Below, in pieces: positions 34,435-63,223 of a DNA stretch of 64,000 nt (positions within the stretch are counted from its first letter, which is position 1; the number at the start of each line of letters is the position of its first letter). A program made the position numbers and the translations under genes. Source of the stretch: an uncultured virus (IMG/VR IMGVR_UViG_3300020281_001556) (Duplodnaviria; Heunggongvirae; Uroviricota; Caudoviricetes); the IMG/VR virus record IMGVR_UViG_3300020281_001556. One strand, written 5' to 3'. The notes under the pieces were generated by a model. The model did no database searches, was not told the origin of the DNA, and was given only the letters and a program-made list of their open reading frames with translations.

Positions 34435-34462
34435 CATGTAACACATGATTAGGGGTTAATAA

Positions 34463-35944: not shown

Positions 35945-35960
35945 AGTATAAGGAAGTATT

Positions 35961-36911: not shown

Positions 36912-37259
36912 ATGGACGAGTCTTTGGAAAAAGCACTAGAATTTTCCAATTACATGGTTACCTTAAACAATCAAAAAAGGATTCTAAAAGAAGAATACCT
37001 TGAAAGTTTAACAATGTATCAGAATGGTGGAAAGTTTACCATTACCAAAGAATTCTTTTCATTCATCTGTAATCTACATAGCCTTGGAGTAGACAAAAGT
37101 GTAGTGATAGATGATAATGAAAATCCTATTCTAATTGATGACCTTTCAAAATTCATGGAAGACATGAAGATTCAATATGTAGAAGAATCTTACAAGTATT
37201 TAGAAAAGTATAAGAAGATGGTAGACAAAAGAAGTGTGGAAAGTTTAGTTGATGTCTAA
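36912..37259 (+). CDS. Hypothetical protein (115 aa)
   Basis: Strong AGGAG RBS; overlaps the next gene. Confidence 0.8.
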   Translation: MDESLEKALEFSNYMVTLNNQKRILKEEYLESLTMYQNGGKFTITKEFFSFICNLHSLGVDKSVVIDDNENPILIDDLSKFMEDMKIQYVEESYKYLEKYKKMVDKRSVESLVDV

Positions 37260-38088
37260 TGGAGTTTTATGCTTTGCAAATAATAATGGAAAAATTGACT
37301 ATTTAAAACAAGCAATATTCCTTGCAACTAGAATAAAAAAACATTTTAATCTCCCTACGTCATTAGTCACGTCAAGTAAAAGAGATCTTGAACATGTATA
37401 CAAAAAAGATCTTGCTATTTTTGATAAAATAATAGAAGTAGAAGATAATAACGAAAATCAAAAACGATATTATGATGGATCGCTTACGTACAAGCGTTTA
37501 TATTTTAAAAATGCAGGAAGAATTAATAGTTTTGATCTAAGTCCTTATGAAAACACAATGGTTATGGACACGGATTTTGTTGTCTGCAATGATAAATTGT
37601 TAAATGCTTTTAATCTACTACCTGATTTTCAAATTTATCAGAAAGCTGTTGACTTGTGTCCTTGGAGATGTTATCCGGAATTTACATATATTAATGATAC
37701 AGGCATAAAATTTTATTGGGCTACATGTTTTTTCTTTAGAAAGACTAAAGAAACAAAATTATTCTTTAATTTACTAAAAAATTTAAAAGAAAATTGGTTA
37801 CATTACAGCAAAATTTACAATTTAGGAAGTAAAAATTTTAGAAATGATCATGTGTTCAGCATTGCTATTCATATTATGAATGGTTTTACAGAAAGTGACT
37901 GGGCAAAAGAACTTCCAGGAACTATGTATTACACTCTTGATAGAGATCATGTTGTTAGTATGGACAAAGATGACATGAAATTTTTAGTTGAAAAGGAAAA
38001 TTATTCAGGTGAATATACTTTAGCTTCAACAAGAAAATCAAATGTGCATGTAATGAACAAGTTCAGTCTCGAAAGGATCATATCATGA
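37252..38088 (+). CDS. Glycosyltransferase, GT-A fold (GT8-like)
   Basis: SPYENTMVMDTD DxD motif; FRND; start moved to ATG 37252. Confidence 0.7.
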   Translation: MSNGVLCFANNNGKIDYLKQAIFLATRIKKHFNLPTSLVTSSKRDLEHVYKKDLAIFDKIIEVEDNNENQKRYYDGSLTYKRLYFKNAGRINSFDLSPYENTMVMDTDFVVCNDKLLNAFNLLPDFQIYQKAVDLCPWRCYPEFTYINDTGIKFYWATCFFFRKTKETKLFFNLLKNLKENWLHYSKIYNLGSKNFRNDHVFSIAIHIMNGFTESDWAKELPGTMYYTLDRDHVVSMDKDDMKFLVEKENYSGEYTLASTRKSNVHVMNKFSLERIIS

Positions 38089-38918
38089 AAGGATATATGA
38101 TGTTTGCTAGAGGTAAGAACTATGTGCAACAAGCATGTATGTGTGCTATGAGCCTTAAAGCAACACAAGAAATATCTAATGTTAGCATAGTAACTGATGA
38201 CACTATTCCAAGCAAGTATAAAGGACTTTTTGATCATATTTTTAATGTACCTTGGAGAGATGATAATACTTTTTACTGGACCGAACATCGTTGGAAAGTA
38301 TTTCACCTAACACCATACGAAGAAACTGTTGTATTAGATACAGATATGATTTTCTTAAATGATGTAAGCCGTTGGTGGGAATATCTTAAAAATTATGATG
38401 TTTGTTTTACAAAAAATGTTTACACATATAGAAACAATTTAGTAACAAGCGATTATTATAGAAAAGCGTTTACAAAAAATAATCTTCCTTTATTGTATTG
38501 TGCATATCATTACTTTAAAAAGAATGACGTAGGATACAAGTATTATCAAAAGTTAGAACAAGTATGTAAAGAGTACGAAAAATTTTATGAAATATATGTC
38601 AAAAAACACAAACCTGAAACTATAAATGCAAAAGGACAAAAATGGCAACTGTCAAGCATGGATTTGAATCATGCTATTACAGTGATAGATGAGAACATTG
38701 AAAATTACACACATCCTGCATTAAATTTTGTGCATATGAAAAGTAAAGTGCAAGAATGGCATAATCCTAACGAAGACTGGATGTCAATGATTCCTTTTTA
38801 TTTTACAGATAATTTACAGCTGAAAATAGGCAACTACACACAAAAAGATATTTTTCATTACACGGAAAATAAATTTTGTGAAGAAAATATTTCTAAGTTT
38901 GAAAGCAAGGTATTATGA
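38085..38918 (+). CDS. Glycosyltransferase, GT-A fold (GT8-like), paralog of 37252
   Basis: TPYEETVVLDTDM DxD motif, FVHMK, IFHY. Confidence 0.72.
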   Translation: MKGYMMFARGKNYVQQACMCAMSLKATQEISNVSIVTDDTIPSKYKGLFDHIFNVPWRDDNTFYWTEHRWKVFHLTPYEETVVLDTDMIFLNDVSRWWEYLKNYDVCFTKNVYTYRNNLVTSDYYRKAFTKNNLPLLYCAYHYFKKNDVGYKYYQKLEQVCKEYEKFYEIYVKKHKPETINAKGQKWQLSSMDLNHAITVIDENIENYTHPALNFVHMKSKVQEWHNPNEDWMSMIPFYFTDNLQLKIGNYTQKDIFHYTENKFCEENISKFESKVL

Positions 38919-39454
38919 AACACGTAAAGGTTCATACACAACAATATGTTTGTTTTGATAATAAAACAGGACAAATTTTTAGCATTGGTCCATCTATAGA
39001 AGATGGTTATTCCTTTATTGAGGTTACATATTCTGAGATAGAGCCAATTAAAACATTAAAAGAAAAAATGACAGATTATGTTGTAGTGTATAACAGGAAA
39101 GAAAAACAATTCAAGCTAAAGAAAAATATAATATTACAAGAACAAGATTTTTACCAAAAAATAAGTTCTTTTGTTCCAAAACAAGAATATGATGTAATGC
39201 TTACTATTGACAAATCAGCTAAAAAATGTTACATTAATACCGATGAAGAACTGTTAGAAATAATGAAAAAAACAAATGTGGACCTAAGAAAACAAATTAC
39301 TTTTAGTTTTACAAAGAAAGATGATCCACATGTATTATACAATATGAAAACGTTTGATATTGATAGCAGTAAAAAACAAGAATTTAAAATTAAAGAAAAA
39401 TTTGACATATACACAAATAGTGATATGGCAAGATGTGTTTACAAGGAAATATAA
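38915..39454 (+). CDS. Hypothetical protein (179 aa)
   Basis: Coupled to neighbours on both sides (ATGA, TAATG); no recognisable motif. Confidence 0.75.
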   Translation: MKHVKVHTQQYVCFDNKTGQIFSIGPSIEDGYSFIEVTYSEIEPIKTLKEKMTDYVVVYNRKEKQFKLKKNIILQEQDFYQKISSFVPKQEYDVMLTIDKSAKKCYINTDEELLEIMKKTNVDLRKQITFSFTKKDDPHVLYNMKTFDIDSSKKQEFKIKEKFDIYTNSDMARCVYKEI

Positions 39455-40371
39455 TGAAAGTAAAATTAGCAGAATTAGACATAATATACCTAAGCTATGA
39501 TGAACCAAATGCAGAACAAAACTATGCAGACTTATTAACTAAAGTTCCTTGGGCAAAACGTGTTCATGGTATACACGGAAGCGACGCGGCACACAAAGCA
39601 TGTGCTGAACTCAGCACCACAGATAGATTTGTCACTGTGGATGGTGATAACACCATAAGACAAGAATTTATTAATCAAGTTTTAGACTTCGACGAACACA
39701 CTGACTTAGAACATAGTGTAATCAGTTGGTGTGGTAGAAACAGTATAAATGGATTGTTGTACGGCAACGGTGGATTAAAATGTTGGCCTAAACAATTTGT
39801 GCTTGATATGAAGACGCATGAAAATGCAGATCCTGACAATCCTCATGCACAGGTTGATTTTTGTTGGGACATAAATTACATTCAACAAAATAGTTGCTAC
39901 TCAGATGTACATAATAACACCACGCCACAACAGGCATGGCGAGCAGGATTTCGTGAAGGTGTAAAGATGGCACTTGATAGAGGTGTCAAACCAACCAAAG
40001 AAGAATTTTTAAATGGACACTGGAAAAATTTGCATAGGCTTTGGATATGGTTAATGATAGGCTCTGATGTAAAGAATGGTAATTGGGCAATACTAGGTGC
40101 CAGAGAAGGATTAAACATGACAATGCTTTCTGATTGGGATTATGTACAAGTAAGAGACTTTGAATATCTTAATGAGCTTTGGGGAGGTAGAGATTCAATG
40201 CCAGAAGATATACTGCATCAAGAGATATGGAACCAAGGTACAGAACTTATCAATGGTTTAGATATTCCAATATCAGTGCAACCTCTTAATGAAGAACAAA
40301 GTAAATTTTTTAAAACAGTGTATCAAAATCCTTCCAGGAATAGTAATCAACAGTTTATCGATATAGAATGA
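39454..40371 (+). CDS. Putative glycosyltransferase (GT-A, DxD)
   Basis: FVTVDGDN DxD, SYDEPNAE, YGNGGLKCWP, AWRAGFRE; start moved to ATG 39454 (TAATG overlap). Confidence 0.65.
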   Translation: MKVKLAELDIIYLSYDEPNAEQNYADLLTKVPWAKRVHGIHGSDAAHKACAELSTTDRFVTVDGDNTIRQEFINQVLDFDEHTDLEHSVISWCGRNSINGLLYGNGGLKCWPKQFVLDMKTHENADPDNPHAQVDFCWDINYIQQNSCYSDVHNNTTPQQAWRAGFREGVKMALDRGVKPTKEEFLNGHWKNLHRLWIWLMIGSDVKNGNWAILGAREGLNMTMLSDWDYVQVRDFEYLNELWGGRDSMPEDILHQEIWNQGTELINGLDIPISVQPLNEEQSKFFKTVYQNPSRNSNQQFIDIE

Positions 40372-41777
40372 AATATAATAGAAACATAAAAGGCAACGAG
40401 CTTAGAAAAATAAATGGCAAGTACGAGTCAAGGTACCTGCACGATGCTGAATATGTTTTTGATTCTCTAAACAAAGTTAGTAATAGTTTTTGTTTAGCAA
40501 AATGGTATAATGTAAGTATTCATTTGCCTACTGGTAAAACACACAGTTGCTATCATCCTAAAAGTCATCACATACCCTTAGAAGAACTTGAAAAAGATCC
40601 AGGAGCATTGCATAACACAGAACACAAGAAAAAACAACGTAAGTTAATGCTCAACGGAGAACGTCCTAAAGAATGTAGTTTTTGTTGGCAGGTTGAGGAT
40701 CATAGCACACAGTTGAGTGATAGAGCTTACAGAAGTAAAGATGTTTTTAGTGAGGAATTAATTGAAGAAGCAAAGCAACTAGGATTCGAAGGTAACCCTA
40801 ATCCAAGATATGTAGAAGTAAATTTCAATCAAGCATGTAATTTTAAATGTGCATATTGTTCGCCAGTTTTATCTACCGAGTGGAAAAAAGAAATAGATAA
40901 ACACGGTCCGTATGCTTTACAAGATAGAAAACACAATGATATGACATTTATGGATAAGCCTAATAATAGTCCGGATAACCCTTATGTAAAAGCATTCTGG
41001 AAATGGTTTCCTGGGATTTATCCAACACTGCAAACATTTAGAATGACGGGCGGCGAACCTTTAATGGATAAAAATACTTTTAAAATATTTGATTATGTAA
41101 AAGAAAATCCTAAGGAAGATTTACATTTGAGCATAACCAGTAATTGTTGTCCTCCAAAAGGTCAATGGGAAAAATTTATGCAAAGCATGGAACAGATATC
41201 TCAAAACGTAGATCACTTTATGCTATTTTGTAGTTTAGATAGTTGGGGAGAACAAGCTGAATATATTAGAAACGGAATGGATTTCACTACACTTTTAAAC
41301 AACGTAGAAGAATATCTTAAGGTTTGTAACAGGCATAGTCTTACATTTATTATAACTTTTAATGTGTTAAGCTATAGCGGTATATATAATTACATAAAAA
41401 ATATTTTACAATTACGCAGAAAGTATAGTCACGATAGACAAATGATTTGGTTTGATATTCCACAACTTACTAATCCTGATTTTATGAATCCTAAACTTTA
41501 CAGTCAAGGCACAAGTGAATTGACCAAATGTATTGAATTTATGGAGCGTAACAAAGATGGCGAAACTGAAAAAGAGTTTCAAGGATTTTCAGATTTTGAA
41601 ATTAAGAAAGTTCAAAGATTAATTGATTGGATAAATGCACCAACTAAATTTGATAACAAAACTGCAACAAAAAATTTTGTTAAATTTTTTCAAGAGCATG
41701 ATAAGAGAAGAAACACAAATTTTTTAAATACTTTTCCTGAAATGGAAGACTTTTGGATGGACTGTATAAATGGATAG
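40368..41777 (+). CDS. Radical SAM protein 1, N-terminal SPASM/twitch-like domain
   Basis: CNFKCAYC, TGGEP; N-terminal FCLAKW..SCYH..CSFC. Confidence 0.93.
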   Translation: MKYNRNIKGNELRKINGKYESRYLHDAEYVFDSLNKVSNSFCLAKWYNVSIHLPTGKTHSCYHPKSHHIPLEELEKDPGALHNTEHKKKQRKLMLNGERPKECSFCWQVEDHSTQLSDRAYRSKDVFSEELIEEAKQLGFEGNPNPRYVEVNFNQACNFKCAYCSPVLSTEWKKEIDKHGPYALQDRKHNDMTFMDKPNNSPDNPYVKAFWKWFPGIYPTLQTFRMTGGEPLMDKNTFKIFDYVKENPKEDLHLSITSNCCPPKGQWEKFMQSMEQISQNVDHFMLFCSLDSWGEQAEYIRNGMDFTTLLNNVEEYLKVCNRHSLTFIITFNVLSYSGIYNYIKNILQLRRKYSHDRQMIWFDIPQLTNPDFMNPKLYSQGTSELTKCIEFMERNKDGETEKEFQGFSDFEIKKVQRLIDWINAPTKFDNKTATKNFVKFFQEHDKRRNTNFLNTFPEMEDFWMDCING

Positions 41778-43125
41778 AGTTGACCATATTAAAGAAGTAA
41801 GAGATAAACTTAATGATGTAGGTTGTGGTTTCTGTGCAATGAAATGGTTACACGAAACCCTGTATCTACATACGGGTGATAATCATAGTTGCTATCACCC
41901 AAGACCACAGCATATACCTTTAGCAGAAATAAAAGCTGATCCTAGTGCATTACATAACACCAATTGGAAAAAAGAACAGCGTAAAAAAATGTTAGAAGGC
42001 GGACGGCCTGAAGAATGTTACTATTGTTGGAACATAGAAGATCTAAAAGGAGATCATATTTCTGATAGAATGATTCATAGTGCTAGTGACTGGGCAGAGC
42101 CAGAGATTGAAAAAATATCTAAAATGCACTACACAGAAAATATAAATCCAAAGTATTTGGAAGTATCATTTGGTAACGGCTGTAATTACCGCTGTGGCTA
42201 TTGTTGTCCACAAGCAAGTACAATGTGGATGGACGAAATTAAAAAACACGGCAATTATGATTTAACCTACAATCAGTATGGAATAGAATTTTTAGATAAA
42301 GGTAGATATTATGCACCTAAAGACGATAATCCTTACATAGAAGCATTTTGGAAATGGTGGCCCGATCTAAGAAAGGATTTACACACGTTGAGAATAACTG
42401 GCGGCGAACCTTTAATGAATCCGGGTGCTATGCAGTTTTTTGATTTGTTAGAAAAAGAACCTGCACCACAACTTGAAATAAGTTTAAACAGCAACTTGGG
42501 TGTTACAACAGCTAAGATAGATAGATTGTTTGATAGGATACAGAGTCTGCTTGATAAGAAAAAGATTAGGAAGTTTAGTTTGTTCACAAGCATTGAAGGT
42601 TGGGGCGAACAGGCAGAATACATGCGTACTGGATTAAAATGTGATCATTGGGAGAGAAACTTTGTAGAAGCAATAAACAGAGGTTTCAAGGTCAATATCA
42701 TGTGTACCTTTAATGTGTTGTGCGTTGCAACATTTACAAACTTTTTGACAAAGGTTATCGAATGGAGAAAAAAATACGGTGAACAAAGCCTACAGTTTGA
42801 TACTCCTTATCTTAAGGAACCGCCTCATTGGATGATAAACATTTTGCCCAGCCAATTTTTACAAGAGATGGATAATAATTTACAGTTTATAAAAGATAAT
42901 AAAAAATATTTTGATCCTGTTGAATATGAAAAAATGAAAAGGGTTAGAGATTACATGTATCAGAATCCTGTTGATGAAAATAAAATCAAACAAGGTCAGC
43001 GTGATTTTTACAGTTTCTTTACAGAAAATGATAAGCGTTTAGGAACAGACTTGCTAAAGACTTTTCCGATGTATTCAGATTTTTATTATTATTGCCAAGG
43101 AGTGTATGAACAATGGAAAAGCTAA
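41770..43125 (+). CDS. Radical SAM protein 2, N-terminal SPASM/twitch-like domain
   Basis: CNYRCGYC, TGGEP; FCAMKW..SCYH..CYYC. Confidence 0.93.
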   Translation: MDRVDHIKEVRDKLNDVGCGFCAMKWLHETLYLHTGDNHSCYHPRPQHIPLAEIKADPSALHNTNWKKEQRKKMLEGGRPEECYYCWNIEDLKGDHISDRMIHSASDWAEPEIEKISKMHYTENINPKYLEVSFGNGCNYRCGYCCPQASTMWMDEIKKHGNYDLTYNQYGIEFLDKGRYYAPKDDNPYIEAFWKWWPDLRKDLHTLRITGGEPLMNPGAMQFFDLLEKEPAPQLEISLNSNLGVTTAKIDRLFDRIQSLLDKKKIRKFSLFTSIEGWGEQAEYMRTGLKCDHWERNFVEAINRGFKVNIMCTFNVLCVATFTNFLTKVIEWRKKYGEQSLQFDTPYLKEPPHWMINILPSQFLQEMDNNLQFIKDNKKYFDPVEYEKMKRVRDYMYQNPVDENKIKQGQRDFYSFFTENDKRLGTDLLKTFPMYSDFYYYCQGVYEQWKS

Positions 43126-45424: not shown

Positions 45425-45425
45425 C

Positions 45426-47740: not shown

Positions 47741-47744
47741 TAAT

Positions 47745-56299: not shown

Positions 56300-56300
56300 A

Positions 56301-57059: not shown

Positions 57060-58288
57060 TGCTTAAACCTTGCAGTCATTTTTGGACAGATATAAATCTA
57101 AATATTTTTAGAAAAGAAATCGTAAATTGTTGTAAAAGATATCAGCAAAACGAAGTAAAAATTTCTGACTTTGAAAAATACGGCACAGACTTTTGGACTA
57201 AACGTCCTGAAGTTTACGAAGATAAGAAAGTTTTTTTAGAAGGAAAATTTCCCAAAGGATGTAAAAGTTGTGCGTTACAACATCCTAACAGTTTGTATAA
57301 TACTTGGAATTGGTGGAAGGATAAGCCACAGGACTTTTTTGTTGACCTTTTAGATAGAGACGAAACTTATAAAATAGAAATAGCATTAAGCACTACTTGT
57401 AACATGACCTGTCTATATTGTGGACCTAAGGTAAGCAGTAGTTGGGCAGATGTGCTAGGTAAACCTGTTGTTCAAATAGATGACGAATGGAAAAAAGCGG
57501 CACTTGAAAGTCTTTTCAAATACATACAAGAAAAAATGACAAAGAATACAAAGCGAGTTGTTTATACCTTTTTGGGTGGAGAAACTTTTTTGGATTTAAG
57601 TTTTTGGGAAATCTTAGACAGAATAGCTGATATACATGATAACGAAATTGAAATTAATTTTATTTCTAATTTAAATGTAAAACCTAAATTAATTCAAAGG
57701 TTGGTCAATCTTGCAAACGCTAAACCAAATATCAAATGGAGAATAAGTCCGAGTATTGAAGATTTAGGGGAACGGGCAGAAGCAGTCAGAGAAGGTTTAG
57801 ACTTTAAGTTGTTTGAATCAAATTATGATTGGATATTGTCTGAACCTGCAATAGATAAAATAGCAGTGTTGCCTACCATGAACTTATTAACCATTCATAA
57901 ACATACAGAATTTTTAAAATGGGTTCTTTCAAAAAATATAAAAATTCGTGGTGCTAAAAATTTACATAAAACATGGACTGTATCATTAAACAGAGTCACA
58001 GAACCAGACTGGTTAGATCCTGCCATTATGCCAAAAAGCAGTAGGCTTGAAATAGACAGAGCAATAAGTTTTATAAAAAACGAATCAAAAAGATTTGGTG
58101 ATACAAAAAATATAACTGATATGTATTTAGGTAATCTTAGAGATTTGCGTAATGTCATAGGATCTAAGAGAACTCCTAAAATGATCGAAATATTAAAATG
58201 GAAGTTAGATAAAAATACAAAACTTTTTAAAAGAGATTATTACAAAATATTTCCTGAACTAAAGGATATAGTAGATGAGAACAAATGA
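57059..58288 (+). CDS. Radical SAM protein 11, N-terminal SPASM/twitch-like domain
   Basis: CNMTCLYC, LGGET; PCSHFW..NCC..CKSC; start at ATG 57059. Confidence 0.92.
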   Translation: MLKPCSHFWTDINLNIFRKEIVNCCKRYQQNEVKISDFEKYGTDFWTKRPEVYEDKKVFLEGKFPKGCKSCALQHPNSLYNTWNWWKDKPQDFFVDLLDRDETYKIEIALSTTCNMTCLYCGPKVSSSWADVLGKPVVQIDDEWKKAALESLFKYIQEKMTKNTKRVVYTFLGGETFLDLSFWEILDRIADIHDNEIEINFISNLNVKPKLIQRLVNLANAKPNIKWRISPSIEDLGERAEAVREGLDFKLFESNYDWILSEPAIDKIAVLPTMNLLTIHKHTEFLKWVLSKNIKIRGAKNLHKTWTVSLNRVTEPDWLDPAIMPKSSRLEIDRAISFIKNESKRFGDTKNITDMYLGNLRDLRNVIGSKRTPKMIEILKWKLDKNTKLFKRDYYKIFPELKDIVDENK

Positions 58289-58991
58289 ACAAATAAAAAA
58301 AATTAAAGAAACACAGTCAGATCCTGTGCAATATATAAATTTTGTAAAACAAGATAATGTAAGAAAAATAGTAGAGTATTACGAAAATAACAAAGATAAA
58401 GCTGAAGTAAAAACTACTGGACCAACTTGTTTATACATAAAAGAAGGTGACGGTGTTATAGATAACATTGTAAGGAAACTTAGAGATATTTACGGAAATT
58501 TTAAAATACGAAATGCACAGATTTTTGATGTGTCTACACCACATGTAATTCATATCGATGACGGAAAAGATTTACCACAGGCATATAAAGCATTTACTCT
58601 ACCTTTAAAGGTTGAATGGAGCGAACATGCTGAATATAGAAACATGGCTCTTGCAAAATTAATATTTTTTGATCAGCATTATTATGGAGGACCTGTTAAA
58701 TTTTTCAATGGGGAGACTGTTGACGAAAATACAAAAGTTCACTATAATATGCCGCTTACTAATTACAAAGAAGTTGAAGGTACTAACGATGTGGGTATAA
58801 GAGAAGAAGTGCAAAATTATCTTACTCATCTAAGGCCACATTGGTTAGAGGGATTAAGTGTGCAATGTTACTTTCCTTGGGTAGGAGGAAGTTGTATTGC
58901 ATTTGATAGTTTACAATTACACTCAGCAAGTGATTTCAATAAATTAGGTATCACAAGAAAGCTCGGGGTAAGTATTTTTACAACTTTATAG
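58275..58991 (+). CDS. Fe(II)/2OG oxygenase-like (cupin) protein
   Basis: PHVIHIDD (HxD), IAFDSLQLHSAS (distal His), terminal RKLGVSIFT. Confidence 0.6.
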   Translation: MRTNEQIKKIKETQSDPVQYINFVKQDNVRKIVEYYENNKDKAEVKTTGPTCLYIKEGDGVIDNIVRKLRDIYGNFKIRNAQIFDVSTPHVIHIDDGKDLPQAYKAFTLPLKVEWSEHAEYRNMALAKLIFFDQHYYGGPVKFFNGETVDENTKVHYNMPLTNYKEVEGTNDVGIREEVQNYLTHLRPHWLEGLSVQCYFPWVGGSCIAFDSLQLHSASDFNKLGITRKLGVSIFTTL

Positions 58992-58998
58992 GTTTAAC

Positions 58999-60123
58999 AT
59001 GTCTGAAGATTTAAAATGGAGTGCTTATGACTTTTCTAAAATACCTTATCAAGATATTGTTAAGGTGGGACAAAGATCTCTTTTATACAGAGATATTTTT
59101 ACTGTCAGTTGGCTTCTTGGTCGCTTTTGCAACTATCGTTGTAGTTATTGCTGGCCATACGCCAGATCAGATCGCAAAGATCACAGGCCCACACAGCTCT
59201 GTTGTGATACAATCGATGAGATAAAAAGGCAAGCACGTGACAACGGTTTTAATAGTTTCCATTTTTCTTTTAGCGGCGGCGAGCCTACTTTTCACCCTGG
59301 TTACAACGATCTTCTACAGCATCTTGCTAATGATATTGATAATACCAATTATACTTCTATTCATATGACAAGTAATTGTAGTCGGAAGATGAAGTGGTTT
59401 CAAGAGTACACTGAAATAGCAAAAGCATTTCACCGAGCAAGTATTACCGCAAGTCTACACACCGAGCATGTTAATACATCAGAAAAAATGCAAGACTTTG
59501 CTGACAAGTTAATTCACTGCCAAGAAAACGATGTGCAAGTTACAATTAATATGGTAATGGTTCCAGAAATATTTGAGAAAAGTTATGAGAATGCATTGTT
59601 CTTTCATGAGCAAGGCATCAATGTAACTCTAAAGCCTCAAAGTGATCCTACAGCAAGTTTTGTTGTTGACGGTTACACAGAAGCACAAATGAAACTTTTA
59701 CATAACGGCATGCCTCAAAGAGCATACACGGAAGACAAAAGAGTATGGGCTGATAGACCTAAACCAAAATTTAATAAACTACCAGCTACTTCTCCTGATA
59801 CAGGAGAAAAGATACCCCCACATTTTCAAGTTGAATTTGAAGATGTCAAAGGTAAAAAATGGTACATGGATCAAGCTGAAAGATTTAATGCTTTTAATTT
59901 TAACAAGTTCAAGGGTTGGAGATGTAATGCAGGATACCAAGGAATTATTATAAGAGAACCAGACGGAAATATAAAACGCAGTTACAGTTGTAGAGATGAA
60001 CCTTTAGGTAATATCGAAACAGGATTTAAATTATTTAAAGAACCTACACCTTGCATAACAGAAAGTTGTGTAAGTAGTGCAGATTCTAAAATACCAAAGG
60101 TAAAAAATGAAAATTATTTGTAA
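58999..60123 (+). CDS. Radical SAM protein 12, C-terminal SPASM/twitch domain, paralog of rSAM 6
   Basis: CNYRCSYC, SGGEP; FKGWRCNAG..YSC..LGNIETGF..PCITESC. Confidence 0.93.
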   Translation: MSEDLKWSAYDFSKIPYQDIVKVGQRSLLYRDIFTVSWLLGRFCNYRCSYCWPYARSDRKDHRPTQLCCDTIDEIKRQARDNGFNSFHFSFSGGEPTFHPGYNDLLQHLANDIDNTNYTSIHMTSNCSRKMKWFQEYTEIAKAFHRASITASLHTEHVNTSEKMQDFADKLIHCQENDVQVTINMVMVPEIFEKSYENALFFHEQGINVTLKPQSDPTASFVVDGYTEAQMKLLHNGMPQRAYTEDKRVWADRPKPKFNKLPATSPDTGEKIPPHFQVEFEDVKGKKWYMDQAERFNAFNFNKFKGWRCNAGYQGIIIREPDGNIKRSYSCRDEPLGNIETGFKLFKEPTPCITESCVSSADSKIPKVKNENYL

Positions 60124-60274
60124 GCACTTAGGACCTTACTATGAAATACAAAAAATGTTTCCTTGTAGAGCATTTGCAAATGAGTTTATAGGAGAGCTTT
60201 GGGTAGAAATAGATGAAAAATATGAAACACTGATTTATTTAATTTTTGGAGATAGCGTTGCTAGAGGTGATTGA
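60107..60274 (+). CDS. Small 55-aa ORF missing from the ORF track (MKIICKHLGPYYEIQKMFPCRAFANEFIGELWVEIDEKYETLIYLIFGDSVARGD)
   Basis: AAGG RBS-like sequence upstream; overlaps the end of rSAM 12 and the start of the next gene, filling the gap exactly. Confidence 0.65.
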   Translation: MKIICKHLGPYYEIQKMFPCRAFANEFIGELWVEIDEKYETLIYLIFGDSVARGD

Positions 60275-60866
60275 TATATTGCAAGACAGTAAATGGAAGT
60301 CTATATTTTTGGATAAGATAAAAGAAATCCAACATGATAGTCACCATAATAAACACAATTATACAGATTTAGAACAGCGTTTAGATCAATATGATTGCTT
60401 CAATATAGTAGTAGATAATGGCGTCTTAAACGCATTTTCCGGTCTCTACAGCGGTGGAATATATCCTCCGGGTACAGTTAGAGCCCTGGATAGAACATAC
60501 TATTTTAACTGGAAAAATGTTAGAAGTGACATATATCCAGAAAGGCAATATGCAACATTATACATGTGGCCTTATCAAGTAGCTAGAGCCAAAGAGCTTG
60601 GATATAAAGCTGTTTTCTTTAGTATCCAAAATCCAAAAAAACGCAGAATATTTACAAGACAAGCAGGAAGAATGAATCCTAGTCCTACCGTACTTCCTAC
60701 GTTACATAACACCTGTAGGCTCGTAAACGGACAGGTTAATAAGGAACCTTTGTGTTGGCAGAACGTTGCAGTATATAAGATTGATAAAAGTTTTGATTTT
60801 ACTTTGCCTGCGATGGCAATAGAAGATTATAAAGAAAAATACAAAGATATTAAAACAATTCGTTAA
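60267..60866 (+). CDS. Hypothetical protein, possible GNAT-fold acyltransferase
   Basis: AFSGLY..VRALDRTY..QVARAKELGYKAVFFS resembles GNAT motifs A/B; GTG 60267 start assumed. Confidence 0.4.
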   Translation: MIDILQDSKWKSIFLDKIKEIQHDSHHNKHNYTDLEQRLDQYDCFNIVVDNGVLNAFSGLYSGGIYPPGTVRALDRTYYFNWKNVRSDIYPERQYATLYMWPYQVARAKELGYKAVFFSIQNPKKRRIFTRQAGRMNPSPTVLPTLHNTCRLVNGQVNKEPLCWQNVAVYKIDKSFDFTLPAMAIEDYKEKYKDIKTIR

Positions 60867-61753
60867 TATCCAAATTCGTTCATTGCTACATGTTCAAAGA
60901 AAGGTGCAATTTTAAAATCCTGAGTTATCCGTCCTCTACGTTTGCTATCAGGATCTGGAATATCACTATCATCAGGACTCCAATTAGTAATCTTAATCCA
61001 TTGTGTTTTTCTTTTGTTGTTTTCATCTAGCGGAAATAACACATTGTATTTTTCTTTATATCCTTCAACGTTATTCCATGATCTAATATAATCCTCTGAC
61101 TTACCAGTAATCTTTGCAAACTTTGTTATAAGTTGATCCCAGGTATGATTCTGTTCTTTTTCTAATGTATATCTTCCAAGTTGTCCTACATTTCTAAAAC
61201 GCAACACACCAGGATGATTTTTAAGATCTTCTTTAAAAATTTTTAAAAGTCTTTCAGGCACATGATCGTTTACGCCCTTTTGTAATATACAGTTTACATT
61301 TATAAAAAAATTGAATTTAGCAAGATTATGTAATGCCTTAATTTTTCTTTCTGCACAACGTAGTTCGTCCATTATTTCATAAACGTCATCATCATCTGCT
61401 CCATTTAGGCTTATGGTTAAGCTACGAAGCCCTGCGTCCCATAAAGACTTTGTATAGTTCAAGTTGCCTAATTTCAAACCATTAGTGCATAAAGTAGGTC
61501 TGTGTCCAAGCTGTCTTACTTTACTGATTACTTCTGGTAAGTCTTTACGCATTGTAGCTTCGCCTCCCATAAGTCTTATATCAGTTCTTTTAGGTAATCT
61601 GCTCACCACATCATAAAATTTGTCTATATCCATATCAGGTATGTCTCTGTTAGGAATATAACAATTTGCACATTCCATATTGCATTTATGTGTTATATCT
61701 GCAACAACAGATCCAAACGTACTCTTCTCTGGTTCTACTTCATAATAGTTCAT
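60863..61753 (-). CDS. Radical SAM protein 13 (MoaA-like core, no evident auxiliary cluster)
   Basis: CNMECANC, MGGEA, TNG, ISLNG, GVND. Confidence 0.9.
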   Translation of the reverse strand: MNYYEVEPEKSTFGSVVADITHKCNMECANCYIPNRDIPDMDIDKFYDVVSRLPKRTDIRLMGGEATMRKDLPEVISKVRQLGHRPTLCTNGLKLGNLNYTKSLWDAGLRSLTISLNGADDDDVYEIMDELRCAERKIKALHNLAKFNFFINVNCILQKGVNDHVPERLLKIFKEDLKNHPGVLRFRNVGQLGRYTLEKEQNHTWDQLITKFAKITGKSEDYIRSWNNVEGYKEKYNVLFPLDENNKRKTQWIKITNWSPDDSDIPDPDSKRRGRITQDFKIAPFFEHVAMNEFGY

Positions 61754-62520
61754 GTTGACTCTCTAAAAAAAGGTAAAAATAATTTTGCTGGATCATATTT
61801 TCCAAACACGTCACTCTTTGCATTTCTATGATGATTAGCATGATAGCTTTCGCCTCCTGTCAAAAAAGAAGCTATAGGAACATTGGTTGCACTAGAAGAA
61901 CTACCTTCTAATTTTTTTCCAAAGGTATGTGTAAATGCATTTATAAATCCAGTAACATGAAACATCATTACCATTGGCATAGAAATAATATAAAAAGCCC
62001 AATGTCCTAACAAAGTATATCCTAACACTATGTACAAAGTTAACAGTTCAAAATACCATCTGTGTTGAAATTTTACAATAGGATTATTTAATAAATCTTT
62101 TATAAATCTTTGTTCAACAATTTTAGGATTAAAAAAATGAAACCAACTTCTAAAGAATCCTTTCTTTGGACTATGAGGATCTCCATCTTTATCACCAAAT
62201 GCATGATGTTTTCTGTGAATCCCTGCCCACCCAAGTATAGGTCCTAGTCCAGCTATGCTACCTATAAAAAGTAAAATATTTTCTTTTGCTTTACTTGTAT
62301 TGAAAGATTTATGTGTAAAATACCTATGGTACCCTATACTTGTGCCTACTGTAACAATAAAAAGATATAGCACAAAGCCCGTTAGTAAACCAATAGGTTC
62401 AAAGAATAACAAACACCCAAACAATAAAAGAGCATGATTCATTAGGGCAAATATCTTTGTCCATGCATCATAAGAATATTTGTTAAAAGGGCTAAATGGT
62501 TTCATACAGTATTTACTCAC
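61750..62520 (-). CDS. Membrane fatty acid (delta-9/acyl-CoA type) desaturase
   Basis: Three His boxes HRYFTH, HRKHH and HANHH; DPHSP; hydrophobic segments. Confidence 0.9.
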   Translation of the reverse strand: MSKYCMKPFSPFNKYSYDAWTKIFALMNHALLLFGCLLFFEPIGLLTGFVLYLFIVTVGTSIGYHRYFTHKSFNTSKAKENILLFIGSIAGLGPILGWAGIHRKHHAFGDKDGDPHSPKKGFFRSWFHFFNPKIVEQRFIKDLLNNPIVKFQHRWYFELLTLYIVLGYTLLGHWAFYIISMPMVMMFHVTGFINAFTHTFGKKLEGSSSSATNVPIASFLTGGESYHANHHRNAKSDVFGKYDPAKLFLPFFREST

Positions 62521-63223
62521 AAACTATGACTAAATTATCAAAGTCTGGCCTAGGATATACTTCTTCAACTCTGCTTGGTGGAAAAGGAATCTTTTTGCTT
62601 TTATCTATTCTAGGATCATGATATGTATGATGTATGTTTGTTTCTTTTCCATAACCTACACCCATTATAAATCTAAACTCCATAGCTCTTTCGTCATCAA
62701 AGATATTAAATATCTCTCCAGCACGTTGTCTATTTTTTACTATGTTTTGACACATACCTGTTTGTATACCTCTGTTTGCTAAAGCTAACATGATGTAAGC
62801 ACTAAAAATACCTATCTCAATGTTTTCTGTTCTTGTCTGATCTCCGTGTGGATCATTAGTTCTTTCTTGTCCTTTACCGTATCCGTCTAACTTGCCTCTA
62901 TCAGATTCTGTTTCGTATCTACGTTCAAGATCACCTACCCATCTGCTGTTAAAGCCTAGCAACCAAGGAGATAAAACCTGTGGATTGCCGTGGTCTTCTT
63001 CAATAGACATGTGGGCGTTTCGTTGACATATTGTCATTATTTCTTTTCTAATTTCTAGATTGTCGTTTCTTAGTAATCTAACTTGGTATGGAAATTGTAA
63101 ATTTTTACTTGGAATATGAAGATATACTTCTTTAAGTGCATCTACAATTATTTCCTTGTCCGGCACACGGTCTTGCCAGGCAAAGGTTGTATGTCTAGAT
63201 TGTATTAGATCGAGCCAGTCCAT
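62513..63223 (-). CDS. Nitroreductase-family flavoprotein
   Basis: IQSRHTTFAW, IPSKNLQFPY, IMLALANRGIQTG, MGVGY. Confidence 0.78.
   Translation of the reverse strand: MDWLDLIQSRHTTFAWQDRVPDKEIIVDALKEVYLHIPSKNLQFPYQVRLLRNDNLEIRKEIMTICQRNAHMSIEEDHGNPQVLSPWLLGFNSRWVGDLERRYETESDRGKLDGYGKGQERTNDPHGDQTRTENIEIGIFSAYIMLALANRGIQTGMCQNIVKNRQRAGEIFNIFDDERAMEFRFIMGVGYGKETNIHHTYHDPRIDKSKKIPFPPSRVEEVYPRPDFDNLVIVCE

What the first reader, a model, noticed from the sequence alone, without database searches (positions are those of the whole stretch)
36912..63223. Phage-encoded ~26 kb cluster of 13 radical SAM enzymes with glycosyltransferases and tailoring enzymes, directly after the tail fibre genes: candidate virion glycosylation/hypermodification system
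Seen in sequence: 13 ORFs with CxxxCxxC, 4 DxD glycosyltransferase-like ORFs, a methyltransferase-like ORF, 1-2 SGNH-like ORFs, 2 HxD..H oxygenases, 2 nitroreductase-fold proteins, a desaturase and a possible GNAT. They are packed with overlapping starts and stops between two fibre-encoding regions. Established: radical SAM/SPASM-twitch enzymes perform sugar dehydrogenation/epimerisation (BtrN, NeoN) and peptide/protein modification (anSME, AlbA, PqqE), and characterised phages usually carry only a few rSAMs (NrdG, QueE-type). Inference: the glycosyltransferases come first and build a glycan on virion proteins, and the rSAM/oxygenase/methyl/acyl enzymes diversify it, affecting receptor binding, stability or shielding. 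Alternatives are DNA hypermodification, host-surface remodelling or a small-molecule product. I know of no characterised pathway with this composition.
Basis: partly seen in the sequence, partly recalled or inferred. Interest (0 to 1): 0.95.

Follow-up and report, generated by a model that had tools for sequence, protein, structure and literature searches.

The report
Phage radical-SAM sugar-editing gene island
An uncultured marine giant phage carries, right behind its tail-fibre genes, a real 26-kb block with 13 iron-sulfur "radical SAM" enzymes and sugar-transferase-like proteins that most likely builds and chemically edits a sugar decoration, but what it makes and what it decorates are still unknown.

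Summary
Exactly 13 of the 45 ORFs I took as genes carry CxxxCxxC, and all 13 match Pfam Radical_SAM. Nine are old paralogs of one catalogued but unstudied family, NCBIfam NF033640 (radical SAM with an N-terminal four-Cys twitch domain). Eight score over its cut-off and one scores 162 against 170.

Confirmed by fold or profile: two GT-A-fold transferases, a class I methyltransferase, two nitroreductase-fold proteins and a membrane desaturase. The GT8, HxD..H oxygenase and SGNH calls rest on motifs or weak hits. The GNAT call has no support.

The block is phage DNA, not a chimera. Its first part follows the fibre genes in 8 of 8 informative relatives, in a complete 328-kb relative and in cultured Ralstonia phage RsoM2USA. 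The second part lies about 100 kb away in the complete relative.

In a bacterium the family sits in an O-antigen ABC-transporter locus, fused to Wzt. Other members are fused to sulfo-, methyl- and possibly glycosyl-transferase domains. Sugar editing is therefore the best reading (about 0.7). A virion target is plausible (about 0.4) but unproven.

Arrays like this were noted in print (2017, 2020), and this scan found the same island type on other DNA before. No reaction is known.

The parts
30521..36875 (+). Upstream tail-fibre genes (context): 30521-32602 with a Collar domain, 32602-34431, 34463-35944 with a fibre-type autoproteolytic chaperone domain, 35961-36875
   Evidence: Pfam Collar E 2e-14 and Peptidase_G2 IMC E 1.4e-6. 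Homologs precede the cluster in 8 of 8 informative loci. The only TATAAATA in the window lies 29 nt before 34463.
36912..37259 (+). Part A: small conserved protein (115 aa) of unknown function at the head of the cluster
   Evidence: No family hit. Homologs hold the same position in L004, L079, L080, in G004 and in RsoM2USA ORF354 (36.5% identity).
37249..38918 (+). Part A: two paralogous GT8-like (glycogenin-like) transferase candidates (37249-38088, 38085-38918)
   Evidence: Profile A3 against PDB: glycogenin E 0.09-0.12 over profile positions 5-105. Asp (DxD strand) and C-terminal His invariant. At least 1096 unannotated relatives; none of the 120 listed has a Pfam domain. Fold not tested.
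38915..39454 (+). Part A: 179-aa ORF of unknown function. The position is conserved, the sequence is not.
   Evidence: No BLAST hit in 79 loci. An unmatched ORF of 92-342 aa (one of them on the opposite strand) holds the same slot in all 11 relatives that have the GT8-like genes.
39433..40371 (+). Part A: GT-A-fold transferase, long form (312 aa)
   Evidence: Member of alignment A1 (32% identical to 43909; invariant D64/D66 DxD). The A1 model has a GT-A fold. 45% identical to RsoM2USA ORF350.
40368..43125 (+). Part A: two N-twitch radical SAM enzymes (40368-41777, 41770-43125)
   Evidence: NF033640 at 321.6 and 306.1 bits, cut-off 170. Four-Cys N-terminal motif plus CxxxCxxC plus GGE. 37% and 35% identical to RsoM2USA ORF349.
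43113..43916 (+). Part B: SGNH-like candidate (267 aa)
   Evidence: Motif level only: N-terminal GGCS, central GG, C-terminal His aligned with a GDS-bearing relative. No family hit.
43909..44595 (+). Part B: GT-A-fold transferase, short form (228 aa)
   Evidence: AlphaFold2 pLDDT 91.3, pTM 0.85. Foldseek E 1e-4 to WrtF, RmlT, SunS and the PBCV-1 capsid glycosyltransferase. VIA Z 11.8 to B4GALNT1 and Z 11.0 to IspD. Homologs in 33 loci.
44579..45424 (+). Part B: class I SAM-dependent methyltransferase-fold protein (281 aa)
   Evidence: AlphaFold2 pLDDT 88.3. Foldseek E 5e-8; every listed hit uses SAM (methyltransferases and nicotianamine synthase). Homologs in 29 loci.
45426..46493 (+). Part B: radical SAM enzyme with a C-terminal Cys-rich region (355 aa), not of the N-twitch family
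   Evidence: Pfam Radical_SAM E 1e-7. phrog_21308 E 1.6e-19. Orthologs up to 81% identical, found in 50 loci.
46490..49145 (+). Part B: two N-twitch radical SAM enzymes (46490-47740, 47745-49145)
   Evidence: NF033640 at 282.8 and 416.2 bits. N-terminal SPASM/twitch followed by Radical_SAM. 47745 has orthologs at 85% identity.
49142..49813 (+). Part B: nitroreductase-fold flavoprotein candidate (223 aa)
   Evidence: Profile A5 against PDB nitroreductases E 4e-7.
49795..50766 (+). Part B: short radical SAM enzyme with a C-terminal Cys motif (323 aa), paralog of 58999
   Evidence: Pfam E 2.8e-13. BLASTP to 58999 E 4e-25, 22% identity. Partial match to the STM4011 radical SAM family.
50754..54169 (+). 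Part B: three N-twitch radical SAM enzymes (50754-51878, 51835-53028, 52994-54169)
   Evidence: NF033640 at 203.9, 342.6 and 406.1 bits.
54166..55083 (+). Part B: 305-aa ORF of unknown function with a weak DUF6270 match
   Evidence: DUF6270 E 1.2e-4, 22.5 bits against cut-off 27.5. Lacks the Ser of the GDS block.
55055..56299 (+). Part B: N-twitch radical SAM enzyme
   Evidence: NF033640 at 341 bits.
56301..57059 (+). Part B: HxD..H protein (candidate Fe/2-oxoglutarate oxygenase, beta-hydroxylase-like)
   Evidence: H168, D170 and H219 invariant in 5 sequences. Only a weak PDB match, beta-hydroxylase E 0.15.
57014..58288 (+). Part B: divergent N-twitch radical SAM enzyme
   Evidence: NF033640 at 162.4 bits, just under the cut-off of 170. 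Keeps all seven conserved Cys and GGE.
58275..58991 (+). Part B: second HxD..H protein (candidate oxygenase)
   Evidence: H93, D95 and H216 invariant in 6 sequences. No PDB or Pfam match.
58999..60123 (+). Part B: short radical SAM enzyme with a C-terminal Cys motif (374 aa)
   Evidence: Pfam E 1.4e-12. Orthologs at 79% identity, found in 58 loci.
60246..60866 (+).
   Evidence: No hit in any library. One homolog in 79 loci apart from the L002 duplicate of this DNA.
60863..63223 (-). Part C, opposite strand: MoaA/TrsS-like radical SAM (60863-61753), membrane fatty-acid-desaturase-like protein (61750-62520), nitroreductase-fold protein (62513-63223). Possibly a separate lipid-directed unit.
   Evidence: Radical_SAM E 1e-15 and FA_desaturase E 1.1e-17. 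TrsS 92 bits and MoaA 75 bits, both far under their cut-offs. The desaturase is the only protein of the window with hydrophobic segments. Nitroreductase profile E 4e-7.
63234..63998 (-). Downstream fibre-like ORF (runs off the window)
   Evidence: tblastn E 4e-4 to cyanophage genes annotated as tail fibre, C-terminal 80 residues only.

Best explanation
This is a phage-encoded, cytoplasmic pathway that builds a sugar decoration and edits it by radical chemistry. I read it in three parts.

Part A (36912-43125) holds a small conserved protein, two GT8-like transferases, one GT-A transferase and two N-twitch radical SAM enzymes. It is the unit that travels with the tail-fibre genes.

Part B (43113-60123) holds a second GT-A transferase, a class I methyltransferase, seven more N-twitch radical SAM enzymes, three radical SAM enzymes of two other types, a nitroreductase-fold flavoprotein, two HxD..H proteins and esterase-like ORFs. 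It is a movable tailoring set.

Part C (60863-63223, opposite strand) holds a radical SAM enzyme, a membrane desaturase and a nitroreductase-fold protein. It may be a separate unit.

Proposed mechanism (inferred):
1. The soluble transferases attach sugars from host nucleotide sugars to an acceptor in the cytoplasm.
2. Each N-twitch enzyme cleaves SAM at its CxxxCxxC cluster and abstracts one hydrogen from a particular sugar carbon.
3. Its fully Cys-ligated auxiliary cluster carries the electron.
4. This gives keto, epimerised, deoxy or branched sugars, which the methyltransferase, oxygenase-like and esterase-like proteins finish.

The acceptor is most probably the phage's own fibre or another virion protein, because the genes are packed onto the fibre operon and no membrane, lipid-carrier or export protein is present.

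Shown: gene content, folds, family membership, synteny, and the bacterial context of the family. Inferred: sugar as substrate, the reaction type, the order of steps and the acceptor.
For: 1. Nine paralogs of NF033640 all keep four N-terminal Cys, CxxxCxxC and GGE, so all look active. They are only 21-33% identical to each other, while orthologs in other contigs reach 38-85%. They are therefore old, separately kept enzymes.

2. The family is tied to polysaccharide work in cells. In bacterium G109 four tandem copies lie between RmlC/RmlD, Wzm, a TylF-type and a class I methyltransferase and a WbsX glycosyltransferase. One copy is fused in a single 854-aa ORF to Wzt (ABC_tran + Wzt_C). In G180 a copy lies near a GT2 and a sugar epimerase/dehydratase.

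3. Among the 14 longer homologs found, two are fused to confident sugar-modifying domains (sulfotransferase-TPR-methyltransferase; FkbM methyltransferase-TPR-methyltransferase). A third has a sub-threshold EryCIII-like glycosyltransferase match.

4. The partners in the window are transferases of sugar type: GT-A fold with an invariant DxD, a weak GT8 match and a methyltransferase fold.

5. Related phage islands add sugar-pathway genes. Among 109 neighbour proteins scanned were UDP-glucose/GDP-mannose dehydrogenase, a CMP-sugar-type cytidylyltransferase, GT1, sulfotransferase, carbamoyltransferase, FkbM and TylF-type methyltransferases and an aminotransferase.

6. For a virion acceptor: fibre genes come directly before part A in 8 of 8 loci with upstream sequence (about six independent lineages), in the complete 328-kb G004 and in cultured phage RsoM2USA, ORFs 355-347.

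7. 19 of 23 gene junctions overlap. The only T4-type late-promoter word in the window sits before fibre gene 34463.

8. No protein of parts A or B has a hydrophobic segment.

9. The island is widespread. 78 related loci of at most 21 kb carry 1-12 radical SAM ORFs, median 6. Complete or large relatives carry 6-21 matches.
Against: - No product, substrate or reaction is known for any member of NF033640. All functional evidence is by association.
- The bacterial contexts rest on 2 genomes among 533 sampled (400 of one phylum apart from the centre MAG; 133 of G109's class) and on at most 3 fusion proteins, one of them sub-threshold.
- Those contexts point to lipid-linked cell-surface polysaccharide, which favours the host-envelope rival as much as a virion target.
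- In the complete relative G004, part B lies about 100 kb from the fibres and further arrays lie at 74-106 kb. Most of the radical SAM genes are therefore not bound to structural genes.
- In Vibrio phage K566 the array lies among NAD-salvage genes.
- The GT8 assignment is weak (E 0.09; the hhalign comparison of A3 with A1 is not significant).
- The GT-A fold is shared with nucleotidyltransferases such as IspD (Z 11).
- The nearest solved sequence to the radical SAM core is a peptide-modifying enzyme (8vpo, E 4e-11).
- No nucleotide-sugar synthesis gene lies in the window's cluster.
- Late expression is inferred from layout only.
Confidence: 0.45

Rival explanations
1. The island remodels the host's cell-surface polysaccharide (O-antigen or capsule) during infection. 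The phage transferases and radical SAM enzymes would act on lipid-linked glycans at the cytoplasmic face, and the host's own exporter would deliver them. The effect would be to change the receptors seen by competing phages.
For: The only cellular contexts found for the family are O-antigen-type loci, including a fusion to the exporter ATPase Wzt. The published reading of the glycosyltransferase-rich, fibre-linked variable island of pelagimyophages is host O-chain change to prevent co-infection (PMC7029224, passages read). Related Vibrio phage K566 has a PagP-like lipid A gene near its array (annotation).
Against: There is no membrane protein, flippase, polymerase, priming transferase or ABC exporter in parts A or B. 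The genes are packed onto the fibre operon with no promoter-like signal above chance, which fits late rather than early expression. Known serotype-converting phages use integral-membrane Gtr or Oac proteins (recalled, not tested).
Confidence: 0.22
2. The island hypermodifies the phage DNA, with sugar or other groups placed on bases and then edited, to escape host nucleases.
For: Large phages often modify their DNA, and radical SAM enzymes, transferases and methyltransferases occur in known base-hypermodification pathways (recalled). A weak QueC-like match and ThyX occur near related arrays.
Against: No nucleotide kinase, base-hydroxymethylase, transglycosylase or DNA-binding domain was found in the 29 ORFs. 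The family's cellular contexts and fusions are polysaccharide-type. The island sits in the structural module, not the replication module.
Confidence: 0.08
3. The radical SAM enzymes modify a peptide or protein directly (cross-links, epimerisation, methylation), as SPASM/twitch peptide maturases do. The target would be the fibre proteins or a small precursor.
For: The best solved-structure sequence match of the core is a peptide cyclopropyl synthase (8vpo, E 3.9e-11; identified from PMC10878394, search listing only). Weaker matches include SkfB and YydG. Small conserved ORFs accompany the island: 36912 in the window, and a 74-aa ORF in 24 related loci. Asp/Asn beta-hydroxylase-type genes occur in related islands.
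Against: No peptide-recognition (RRE/PqqD) domain was found by Pfam or NCBIfam. The small ORFs are conserved along their whole length rather than having a variable core, and the 74-aa ORF is absent from the window. Fusions and bacterial neighbours are sugar enzymes, not peptidases, transporters or precursors.
Confidence: 0.1
4. The island makes a free small molecule (for example an aminocyclitol- or aminoglycoside-like compound or a cofactor) that acts on the host or on competitors.
For: The N-terminal domain aligns weakly with the auxiliary-cluster domain of BtrN, an aminoglycoside-pathway dehydrogenase (E 0.0025). Related islands carry carbamoyl- and aminotransferases. Earlier notes of this scan report amidinotransferases too (not checked here).
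Against: The window has no aminotransferase, amidinotransferase, cyclase, exporter or resistance gene. Four transferase-like proteins point to a polymeric or protein-bound product. The link to the fibre genes is unexplained by this reading.
Confidence: 0.1

Closest known systems
NCBIfam NF033640, N_Twi_rSAM (twitch domain-containing radical SAM protein)
   Same: Eight ORFs score 204-416 bits against the cut-off of 170, with full-length matches. All have the N-terminal four-Cys domain followed by the radical SAM core.
   Different: The family is a sequence catalogue entry only. I found no paper on its reaction. ORF 57014 falls just under the cut-off (162 bits).
Fibre-linked variable island ('host recognition cluster') of marine T4-like pelagimyophages and cyanomyophages (Zaragoza-Solas et al. 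2020, PMC7029224; passages read)
   Same: Both are large variable islands next to a giant structural gene and the tail fibres. Both hold glycosyltransferases (GT8 the commonest there) and cassettes of radical SAM genes that differ between close relatives.
   Different: This phage is nearer to jumbo myoviruses (PA5oct, Phosso, Atu_ph07 and RsoM2USA types) by its gp46-like protein and its cluster genes. The paper does not analyse the radical SAM genes, and it reads the transferases as acting on the host O-chain.
T4-like environmental genome with 12 radical SAM genes and Fe-S assembly genes (Nishimura et al. 2017, PMC5332604; passage read; its Table S1E not seen)
   Same: A marine T4-like phage with a double-digit number of radical SAM genes.
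   Different: It was reported as a count in the context of Fe-S metabolism. No family assignment, gene order or function was given in the passage I read.
Ralstonia phage RsoM2USA ORFs 347-355 (cultured, 343.8 kb)
   Same: Same gene order: giant virion protein, fibre-like gene, homolog of 36912 (36.5%), two GT8-like genes (37%, 34%), an unmatched ORF, the long GT-A (45%), one N-twitch radical SAM (37%), the short GT-A (43%), a methyltransferase-like gene (27%).
   Different: Only this one N-twitch radical SAM gene lies in that stretch, so it is a minimal version. All these ORFs are annotated as hypothetical, and the phage's paper does not contain the word 'radical' (PMC8504454, term search).
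Virus-encoded virion glycosylation (chlorovirus PBCV-1 capsid glycosyltransferase; mycobacteriophage virion glycosylation, recalled)
   Same: Soluble virus-encoded GT-A transferases next to structural genes. The PBCV-1 capsid glycosyltransferase is among the fold matches of the 43909 model (E 1.4e-3).
   Different: Those systems have no radical SAM enzymes. Glycosylated virions have not been shown here.
BtrN (2-deoxy-scyllo-inosamine dehydrogenase), the prototype twitch radical SAM enzyme
   Same: A radical SAM core plus a small auxiliary [4Fe-4S] domain. The N-terminal domain of the profile aligns with BtrN residues 187-259 (E 0.0025).
   Different: The auxiliary domain is N-terminal here and C-terminal in BtrN. 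The match is weak, and neither substrate nor reaction has been tested.
ABC-transporter-dependent O-antigen loci (Wzm/Wzt with chain-end modification)
   Same: In bacterium G109 four family members lie in such a locus and one is fused to Wzt with its carbohydrate-binding C-terminal domain.
   Different: The phage island has no Wzm/Wzt, no priming enzyme and no nucleotide-sugar synthesis genes.

Membership tests
Radical SAM superfamily (Pfam PF04055) | CxxxCxxC cluster motif and a match to the family profile | tested here: met
   13 of 13 ORFs carry the motif. 11 of 13 are over the gathering score and 2 are just under (28.5 and 26.7 against 29.5).
Radical SAM superfamily (Pfam PF04055) | SAM-binding GGE motif | tested here: met
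   12 of 13 ORFs; absent in 45426.
NCBIfam NF033640 N_Twi_rSAM | Full-length score at or over the curated cut-off (170 bits) | tested here: met
   Eight ORFs score 203.9-416.2 bits. 57014 scores 162.4 and is not a member by the cut-off. 45426, 49795 and 58999 score 28-42 bits, and NF033640 is not among the hits shown for 60863; these four are not members.
NCBIfam NF033640 N_Twi_rSAM | Auxiliary-cluster (twitch) domain placed N-terminal to the radical SAM core, with conserved Cys ligands | tested here: met
   C15, C34, C83 and C86 are invariant ahead of C130/C134/C137 in all 9 paralogs. Pfam SPASM matches N-terminal residues ~10-95 in 5 of them.
BtrN-type twitch dehydrogenases | C-terminal twitch domain and a sugar or cyclitol alcohol as substrate | tested here: not met
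   The domain is N-terminal. The sequence match to BtrN is weak (E 0.0025). The substrate cannot be tested here.
SPASM/twitch peptide (RiPP) maturases | Peptide-recognition domain (RRE/PqqD) or a nearby precursor peptide with a variable core | tested here: not met
   No RRE/PqqD family in 29 ORFs. The small neighbouring ORFs are conserved throughout. A precursor outside the window is not excluded.
GT-A fold nucleotide-sugar transferases (GT2-like) | GT-A fold | tested here: met
   Model of 43909: pLDDT 91. Foldseek E 1e-4. VIA Z 11.8, rmsd 2.8, 137 residues aligned. The fold is shared with nucleotidyltransferases (IspD, Z 11).
GT-A fold nucleotide-sugar transferases (GT2-like) | DxD metal-binding motif | tested here: met
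   D64 and D66 are invariant in 27 sequences.
GT8 (glycogenin-like retaining glycosyltransferases) | Profile match to GT8, with the DxD motif and a C-terminal His | tested here: inconclusive
   Glycogenin E 0.09 over the N-terminal 100 positions. One Asp and one His are invariant. No Pfam hit in the two window ORFs, and none of the 120 listed relatives has a precomputed Pfam domain.
Class I SAM-dependent methyltransferases | Rossmann-type methyltransferase fold | tested here: met
   Model of 44579: pLDDT 88. At least 500 PDB matches at E <= 0.001, and every one listed uses SAM. Pfam finds no family in 17 members.
Serotype-converting phage O-antigen modification (Gtr/Oac type) | Integral-membrane transferase, flippase or acetylase | tested here: not met
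   No hydrophobic segment in any ORF of parts A and B. Only the desaturase of part C has them.
Virus-encoded virion glycosylation | Soluble transferases encoded beside structural genes | tested here: met
Virus-encoded virion glycosylation | Glycan present on virion proteins | not testable with these tools
   Needs virions or expressed proteins.
Phage DNA hypermodification pathways | Enzymes that handle nucleotides or DNA bases (kinase, hydroxymethylase, transglycosylase) in the cluster | tested here: not met
   None among the 29 ORFs in Pfam, NCBIfam or PHROGs. 14 ORFs have no Pfam family at all, so this is not exhaustive.

The most novel reading that the evidence does not exclude
N-twitch radical SAM enzymes are a new class of enzymes that edit sugars after they have been attached. 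Giant phages keep a swappable set of them to write a variable 'sugar code' on their own tail fibres or other virion proteins. This would change host range, stability or visibility to host defences, and would be a radical-chemistry counterpart of O-antigen diversity carried by the virus particle itself.
Probability: 0.25. Interest if true: 0.85.

Novelty: new variant of a known kind. Interest (0 to 1): 0.62.

Why it matters
Radical SAM enzymes are costly and oxygen-sensitive, yet a phage of the oxic ocean spends about 26 kb on 13 of them, and relatives carry up to about 20. The main family has no known reaction, although its phage relatives are common in metagenome-derived viral contigs.

If the enzymes edit sugars, they would add a large unexplored set of carbohydrate chemistries. 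They would also show that phages, like giant eukaryotic viruses, make their own complex glycans. If the target is the virion, the island bears on host range and on how phages escape recognition. If the target is the host envelope, it bears on competition between phages.

A cultured phage carries a minimal version in the same gene order, so the question can now be tested.

Tried and rejected
Searches that found nothing or little:
- Megablast of the cluster against 50,697 phage records: no match.
- Profile searches of the GT-A-like (A1) and methyltransferase-like (A2) families against PDB sequences: only chance-level hits. Folds were obtained by structure prediction instead.
- Pfam on all 17 members of A2: no methyltransferase family.
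- The protein-atlas look-ups gave only leads: GT2 at 0.87, Methyltransf_31 at 0.95.
- hhalign of the GT8-like family against the GT-A family: it aligned the DxD strands, but at probability 0.6%.
- Profile of the 58275 family against PDB: nothing relevant.
- The bacterial genome scan with window ORF 47745 returned only two MAG contigs that are phage-like (77-83% identical; 11 and 14 family copies in the two MAGs).
- The search of 133 genomes of G109's class found no further carrier.

Signals at chance level:
- Sigma-70-type promoter and terminator scans (81 against 88.6 expected; 7 against 9.3).
- Literature searches for 'N-terminal twitch', twitch plus phage, twitch plus polysaccharide, radical SAM plus O-antigen, and radical SAM plus virion glycan found no functional study.

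Readings rejected:
- Assembly chimera with host DNA. GC is 0.31-0.35 across the island against 0.32-0.39 in the structural genes, with an unbroken positive GC skew. The same fibre-to-cluster junction occurs in 8 other contigs, in a complete phage genome and in an isolate. A second record, L002/G001, holds the same genes at 99-100% identity, but it may come from the same sample, so I do not count it.
- GNAT for 60246: no support.
- 'All 13 radical SAM genes are fibre-linked': rejected after reading the layout of G004.

Full report
WHAT THE WINDOW IS

The window is a fragment of an uncultured marine giant myovirus. On the + strand it encodes a gp5-like hub with a lysozyme region, a PAAR protein, a gp25-like wedge protein, a 1196-aa protein and a 4983-aa protein. 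These are followed by fibre genes with a Collar domain and a fibre-type autoproteolytic chaperone domain. Its gp46-like protein is closest to those of jumbo phages: PA5oct 50.5%, Phosso 46.6%, Atu_ph07 44.2%. The window's own assembly is not held. One IMG/VR record (G001/L002, 32.7 kb) carries the same genes at 99-100% protein identity.

CHECK OF THE OBSERVATION

From the 74 ORFs of at least 80 aa I took 45 non-nested ORFs as genes. Of these, 29 lie between 36912 and 63857.

Radical SAM genes:
- Pfam finds Radical_SAM in 13 of the 29. Eleven are over the gathering score and two just under.
- Exactly these 13 of the 45 ORFs carry CxxxCxxC, and 12 of the 13 also carry GGE.
- NCBIfam places eight of them in NF033640, 'twitch domain-containing radical SAM protein', at 204-416 bits against a cut-off of 170. 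A ninth (57014) scores 162.
- In these nine, a four-Cys domain precedes the radical SAM core. C15, C34, C83, C86, C130, C134, C137 and GGE are invariant.
- The other four are of three kinds. 45426 has a C-terminal Cys-rich region. 49795 and 58999 are paralogs (E 4e-25). 60863, on the opposite strand, is MoaA/TrsS-like.

The remaining ORFs: 14 of the 29 have no Pfam family at E <= 0.01. I built family alignments from related loci and tested them one by one.

| ORF(s) | Result |
|---|---|
| 43909, 39433 | AlphaFold2 pLDDT 91.3; GT-A fold (Foldseek E 1e-4; VIA Z 11.8 to B4GALNT1, Z 11.0 to IspD); DxD invariant in 27 sequences |
| 44579 | Class I methyltransferase fold, pLDDT 88.3, Foldseek E 5e-8 |
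| 49142, 62513 | Match PDB nitroreductases at E 4e-7 |
| 61750 | Fatty-acid-desaturase-like; the only protein with hydrophobic segments |
| 37249, 38085 | Glycogenin at only E 0.09 |
| 56301, 58275 | HxD..H invariant, no solid outside match |
| 43113, 54166 | SGNH call is motif only |
| 60246 | No evidence that it is a GNAT |

Nineteen of the 23 junctions from 36912 to 58999 overlap.

IS IT PHAGE DNA, AND IS IT COMMON?

- GC and GC skew run on unbroken from the structural genes into the island.
- A search of IMG/VR with 52994 gave 106 matching stretches, and the best 80 are held as 79 loci. In the 78 other than the duplicate, radical SAM ORFs number 1-12 per locus of at most 21 kb, median 6.
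- Five larger records carry 6-21 matches to NF033640. The complete 328-kb record G004 (terminal repeats) carries 21, of which 14 are over the cut-off.
- Cultured phages hold distant members. 39 of 50,697 records match 52994, all under 25% identity. They include KVP40-type Vibrio phages, Vibrio phage K566 with five copies, and RsoM2USA.
- Paralogs within the window are 21-33% identical, while orthologs elsewhere reach 38-85%. The set is therefore old, and it varies by gain and loss of cassettes. The nearest relative, L034, differs in several inserted and missing genes.

SYNTENY

Eleven loci contain the GT8-like genes, and eight of them have upstream sequence. In all eight the upstream genes are homologs of the window's fibre genes, and the order is the same: fibre genes, a ~110-aa ORF, two GT8-like genes, a small variable ORF, the long GT-A gene, then N-twitch radical SAM genes. 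Three of the eight are near-identical, so this amounts to about six lineages.

G004 shows the same order at 174-184 kb, behind its gp25, gp6-like and giant genes. There the second half of the window's island (short GT-A, methyltransferase, 45426-type, 47745-type ... 52994-type) lies at 288-296 kb, and more arrays lie at 74-106 kb.

RsoM2USA ORFs 355-347 repeat the window's order from the fibre-like gene to the methyltransferase-like gene, with a single N-twitch enzyme.

I therefore divide the block into three parts:
- Part A (36912-43125): fibre-linked everywhere I could look.
- Part B (43113-60123): movable.
- Part C (60863-63223, opposite strand): perhaps a separate unit.

WHAT THE MAIN FAMILY DOES IN CELLS

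NF033640 is rare in bacteria. In a sample of 401 genomes of one phylum, 3 have a member, and one of the 3 is a MAG with phage contigs. In a class-level set of 133 genomes, only 1 has one.

In G109 four tandem copies lie in an ABC-transporter-type O-antigen locus. The locus contains RmlD, RmlC, Wzm, then Wzt (ABC_tran + Wzt_C) fused to the first copy in one 854-aa ORF. Three more copies follow, then a TylF-type and a class I methyltransferase and a WbsX glycosyltransferase. In G180 a copy lies near a GT2 and a sugar epimerase/dehydratase.

Among the 14 longer homologs found in the protein collection:
- one is sulfotransferase-TPR-methyltransferase-N-twitch;
- one is FkbM-TPR-methyltransferase-N-twitch;
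- one has an EryCIII-like glycosyltransferase region (under the Pfam cut-off) ahead of the N-twitch part;
- three are joined to a B12-binding radical SAM enzyme.

In related phage islands, 109 neighbour proteins scanned include a UDP-glucose/GDP-mannose dehydrogenase, a CMP-sugar-type cytidylyltransferase, a GT1, a sulfotransferase, a carbamoyltransferase, FkbM and TylF-type methyltransferases, an aminotransferase, TauD and Asp/Asn beta-hydroxylase-type oxygenases, and a nucleoside phosphorylase-fold protein.

All of this points to carbohydrate tailoring. None of it is direct evidence.

MECHANISM

I propose that the soluble transferases attach sugars from host nucleotide sugars, since no nucleotide-sugar gene lies in the window's island. 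Each N-twitch enzyme would then abstract a hydrogen from a defined sugar carbon. The four invariant Cys of the auxiliary domain suggest a fully ligated cluster used for electron transfer, as in BtrN and the anaerobic sulfatase maturases (recalled knowledge). The N-terminal domain aligns weakly with BtrN's auxiliary domain (E 0.0025). That would fit oxidation to a keto sugar, epimerisation or deoxygenation. The methyltransferase, the HxD..H proteins and the esterase-like ORFs would come after. The nitroreductase-fold proteins might supply or remove electrons. This paragraph is inference.

THE ACCEPTOR

For a virion protein:
- Part A sits on the fibre operon in every informative relative.
- Gene packing is tight, and no promoter or terminator signal rises above chance inside the island.
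- The sole T4-type late-promoter word lies before fibre gene 34463.
- There are no membrane or export proteins.

For the host envelope:
- The bacterial homologs work in O-antigen loci.
- The published reading of the comparable island of pelagimyophages is host O-chain change (PMC7029224, passages read).

Against a simple virion story, part B and other arrays lie far from structural genes in G004 and in K566.

My odds:

| Reading | Probability |
|---|---|
| Sugar editing of some kind | about 0.7 |
| - virion acceptor | about 0.4-0.45 |
| - host envelope | about 0.2 |
| - other sugar-based product | remainder |
| DNA modification | 0.08 |
| Direct peptide or protein modification | 0.1 |
| Free small molecule | 0.1 |

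WHAT IS KNOWN

- NF033640 catalogues the family without a function.
- Nishimura et al. 2017 reported a T4-like environmental genome with 12 radical SAM genes (PMC5332604, passage read). I did not see its Table S1E, which may list them.
- Zaragoza-Solas et al. 2020 described the fibre-linked variable island with glycosyltransferases and radical SAM cassettes in pelagimyophages (passages read).
- The RsoM2USA paper annotates none of ORFs 347-355, and the term search for 'radical' found nothing in it.
- Seven full-text searches found no study of the reaction or the product. The library misses most subscription journals, so this is not proof of absence.
- This scan has noted the same island type on other DNA several times. 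From those notes I took the RsoM2USA lead, which I checked and confirmed. I also took a Bdellovibrio lead, which I could not check.

VERDICT

The island is a new variant of a known kind (virus-encoded glycan machinery) built around an enzyme family whose chemistry is unknown.

Interest is 0.62. The size of the radical SAM set and the unknown chemistry are striking, and a cultured minimal version makes the question testable. However, the arrays are already noted in print and in this scan, and nothing here fixes the product.

Noticed in passing
window 34427-34434 and the whole window: The T4 late-promoter word TATAAATA occurs once in 64 kb, against 10.55 expected from shuffles (all 100 shuffles had at least one). 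The single copy lies 29 nt before fibre gene 34463. One-mismatch copies lie before 10850, 11348, 29910 and 56301. This looks like selection against stray late promoters.
   Followed up: partly
window 14938-29889 (+): A single 4983-aa ORF with an FG-GAP repeat and a CBM5/12 module. Its homolog in RsoM2USA (ORF361, 2541 aa) was assigned to a virion gel band in that phage's paper, on mass spectrometry and predicted mass (PMC8504454, passage read).
   Followed up: partly
L003:4319-4543 and 23 other related loci: A well-conserved 74-aa ORF (46-66% identity between loci) lies between the methyltransferase-like gene and the 45426-type radical SAM gene in the loci whose gene order I read (L003, L004, L005, L034, L051). 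It is absent from the window: tblastn finds nothing, and 44579 and 45426 abut with a 1-nt gap.
   Followed up: partly
L094 (G109:C19) 8579-11143 (-): A bacterial 854-aa single ORF fuses the O-antigen exporter ATPase Wzt (ABC_tran + Wzt_C) to an N-twitch radical SAM enzyme. It is followed by three more copies, two methyltransferases and a WbsX glycosyltransferase.
   Followed up: partly
L081 and L082 (MAG contigs titled Gammaproteobacteria MED685 and Rickettsiales MED657): Two marine MAGs hold contigs 77-83% identical to the window's 47745 protein. The MAGs carry 11 and 14 N-twitch radical SAM matches, most on one contig in each. These are probably phage contigs binned with cells. They could be a weak host hint or plain contamination.
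   Followed up: no
window 7783-10527 (+): The gp5-like baseplate hub protein carries a C-terminal chitinase-class-I/SLT-type lysozyme region, followed by a PAAR protein and a gp25-like wedge protein.
   Followed up: no
G004 (complete 328-kb relative) 74-106 kb, 116-119 kb, 145-148 kb, 181-184 kb, 288-296 kb: Radical SAM arrays lie in at least five separate places of one genome (21 matches, 14 over the family cut-off). Homologs of the desaturase-like gene lie beside the first array.
   Followed up: partly
P0002-P0004; L019:12305-14158 and 15805-17511: Some relatives fuse, or place side by side, a B12-binding (class B) radical SAM enzyme and an N-twitch enzyme. This hints at radical methylation in the same pathway.
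   Followed up: no
window 63234-63998 (-): The fibre-like ORF has several Asn-x-Thr/Ser triplets in a Gly/Val/Thr-rich repeat region (read by eye from the translation). Whether these are glycan acceptor sites is unknown.
   Followed up: no
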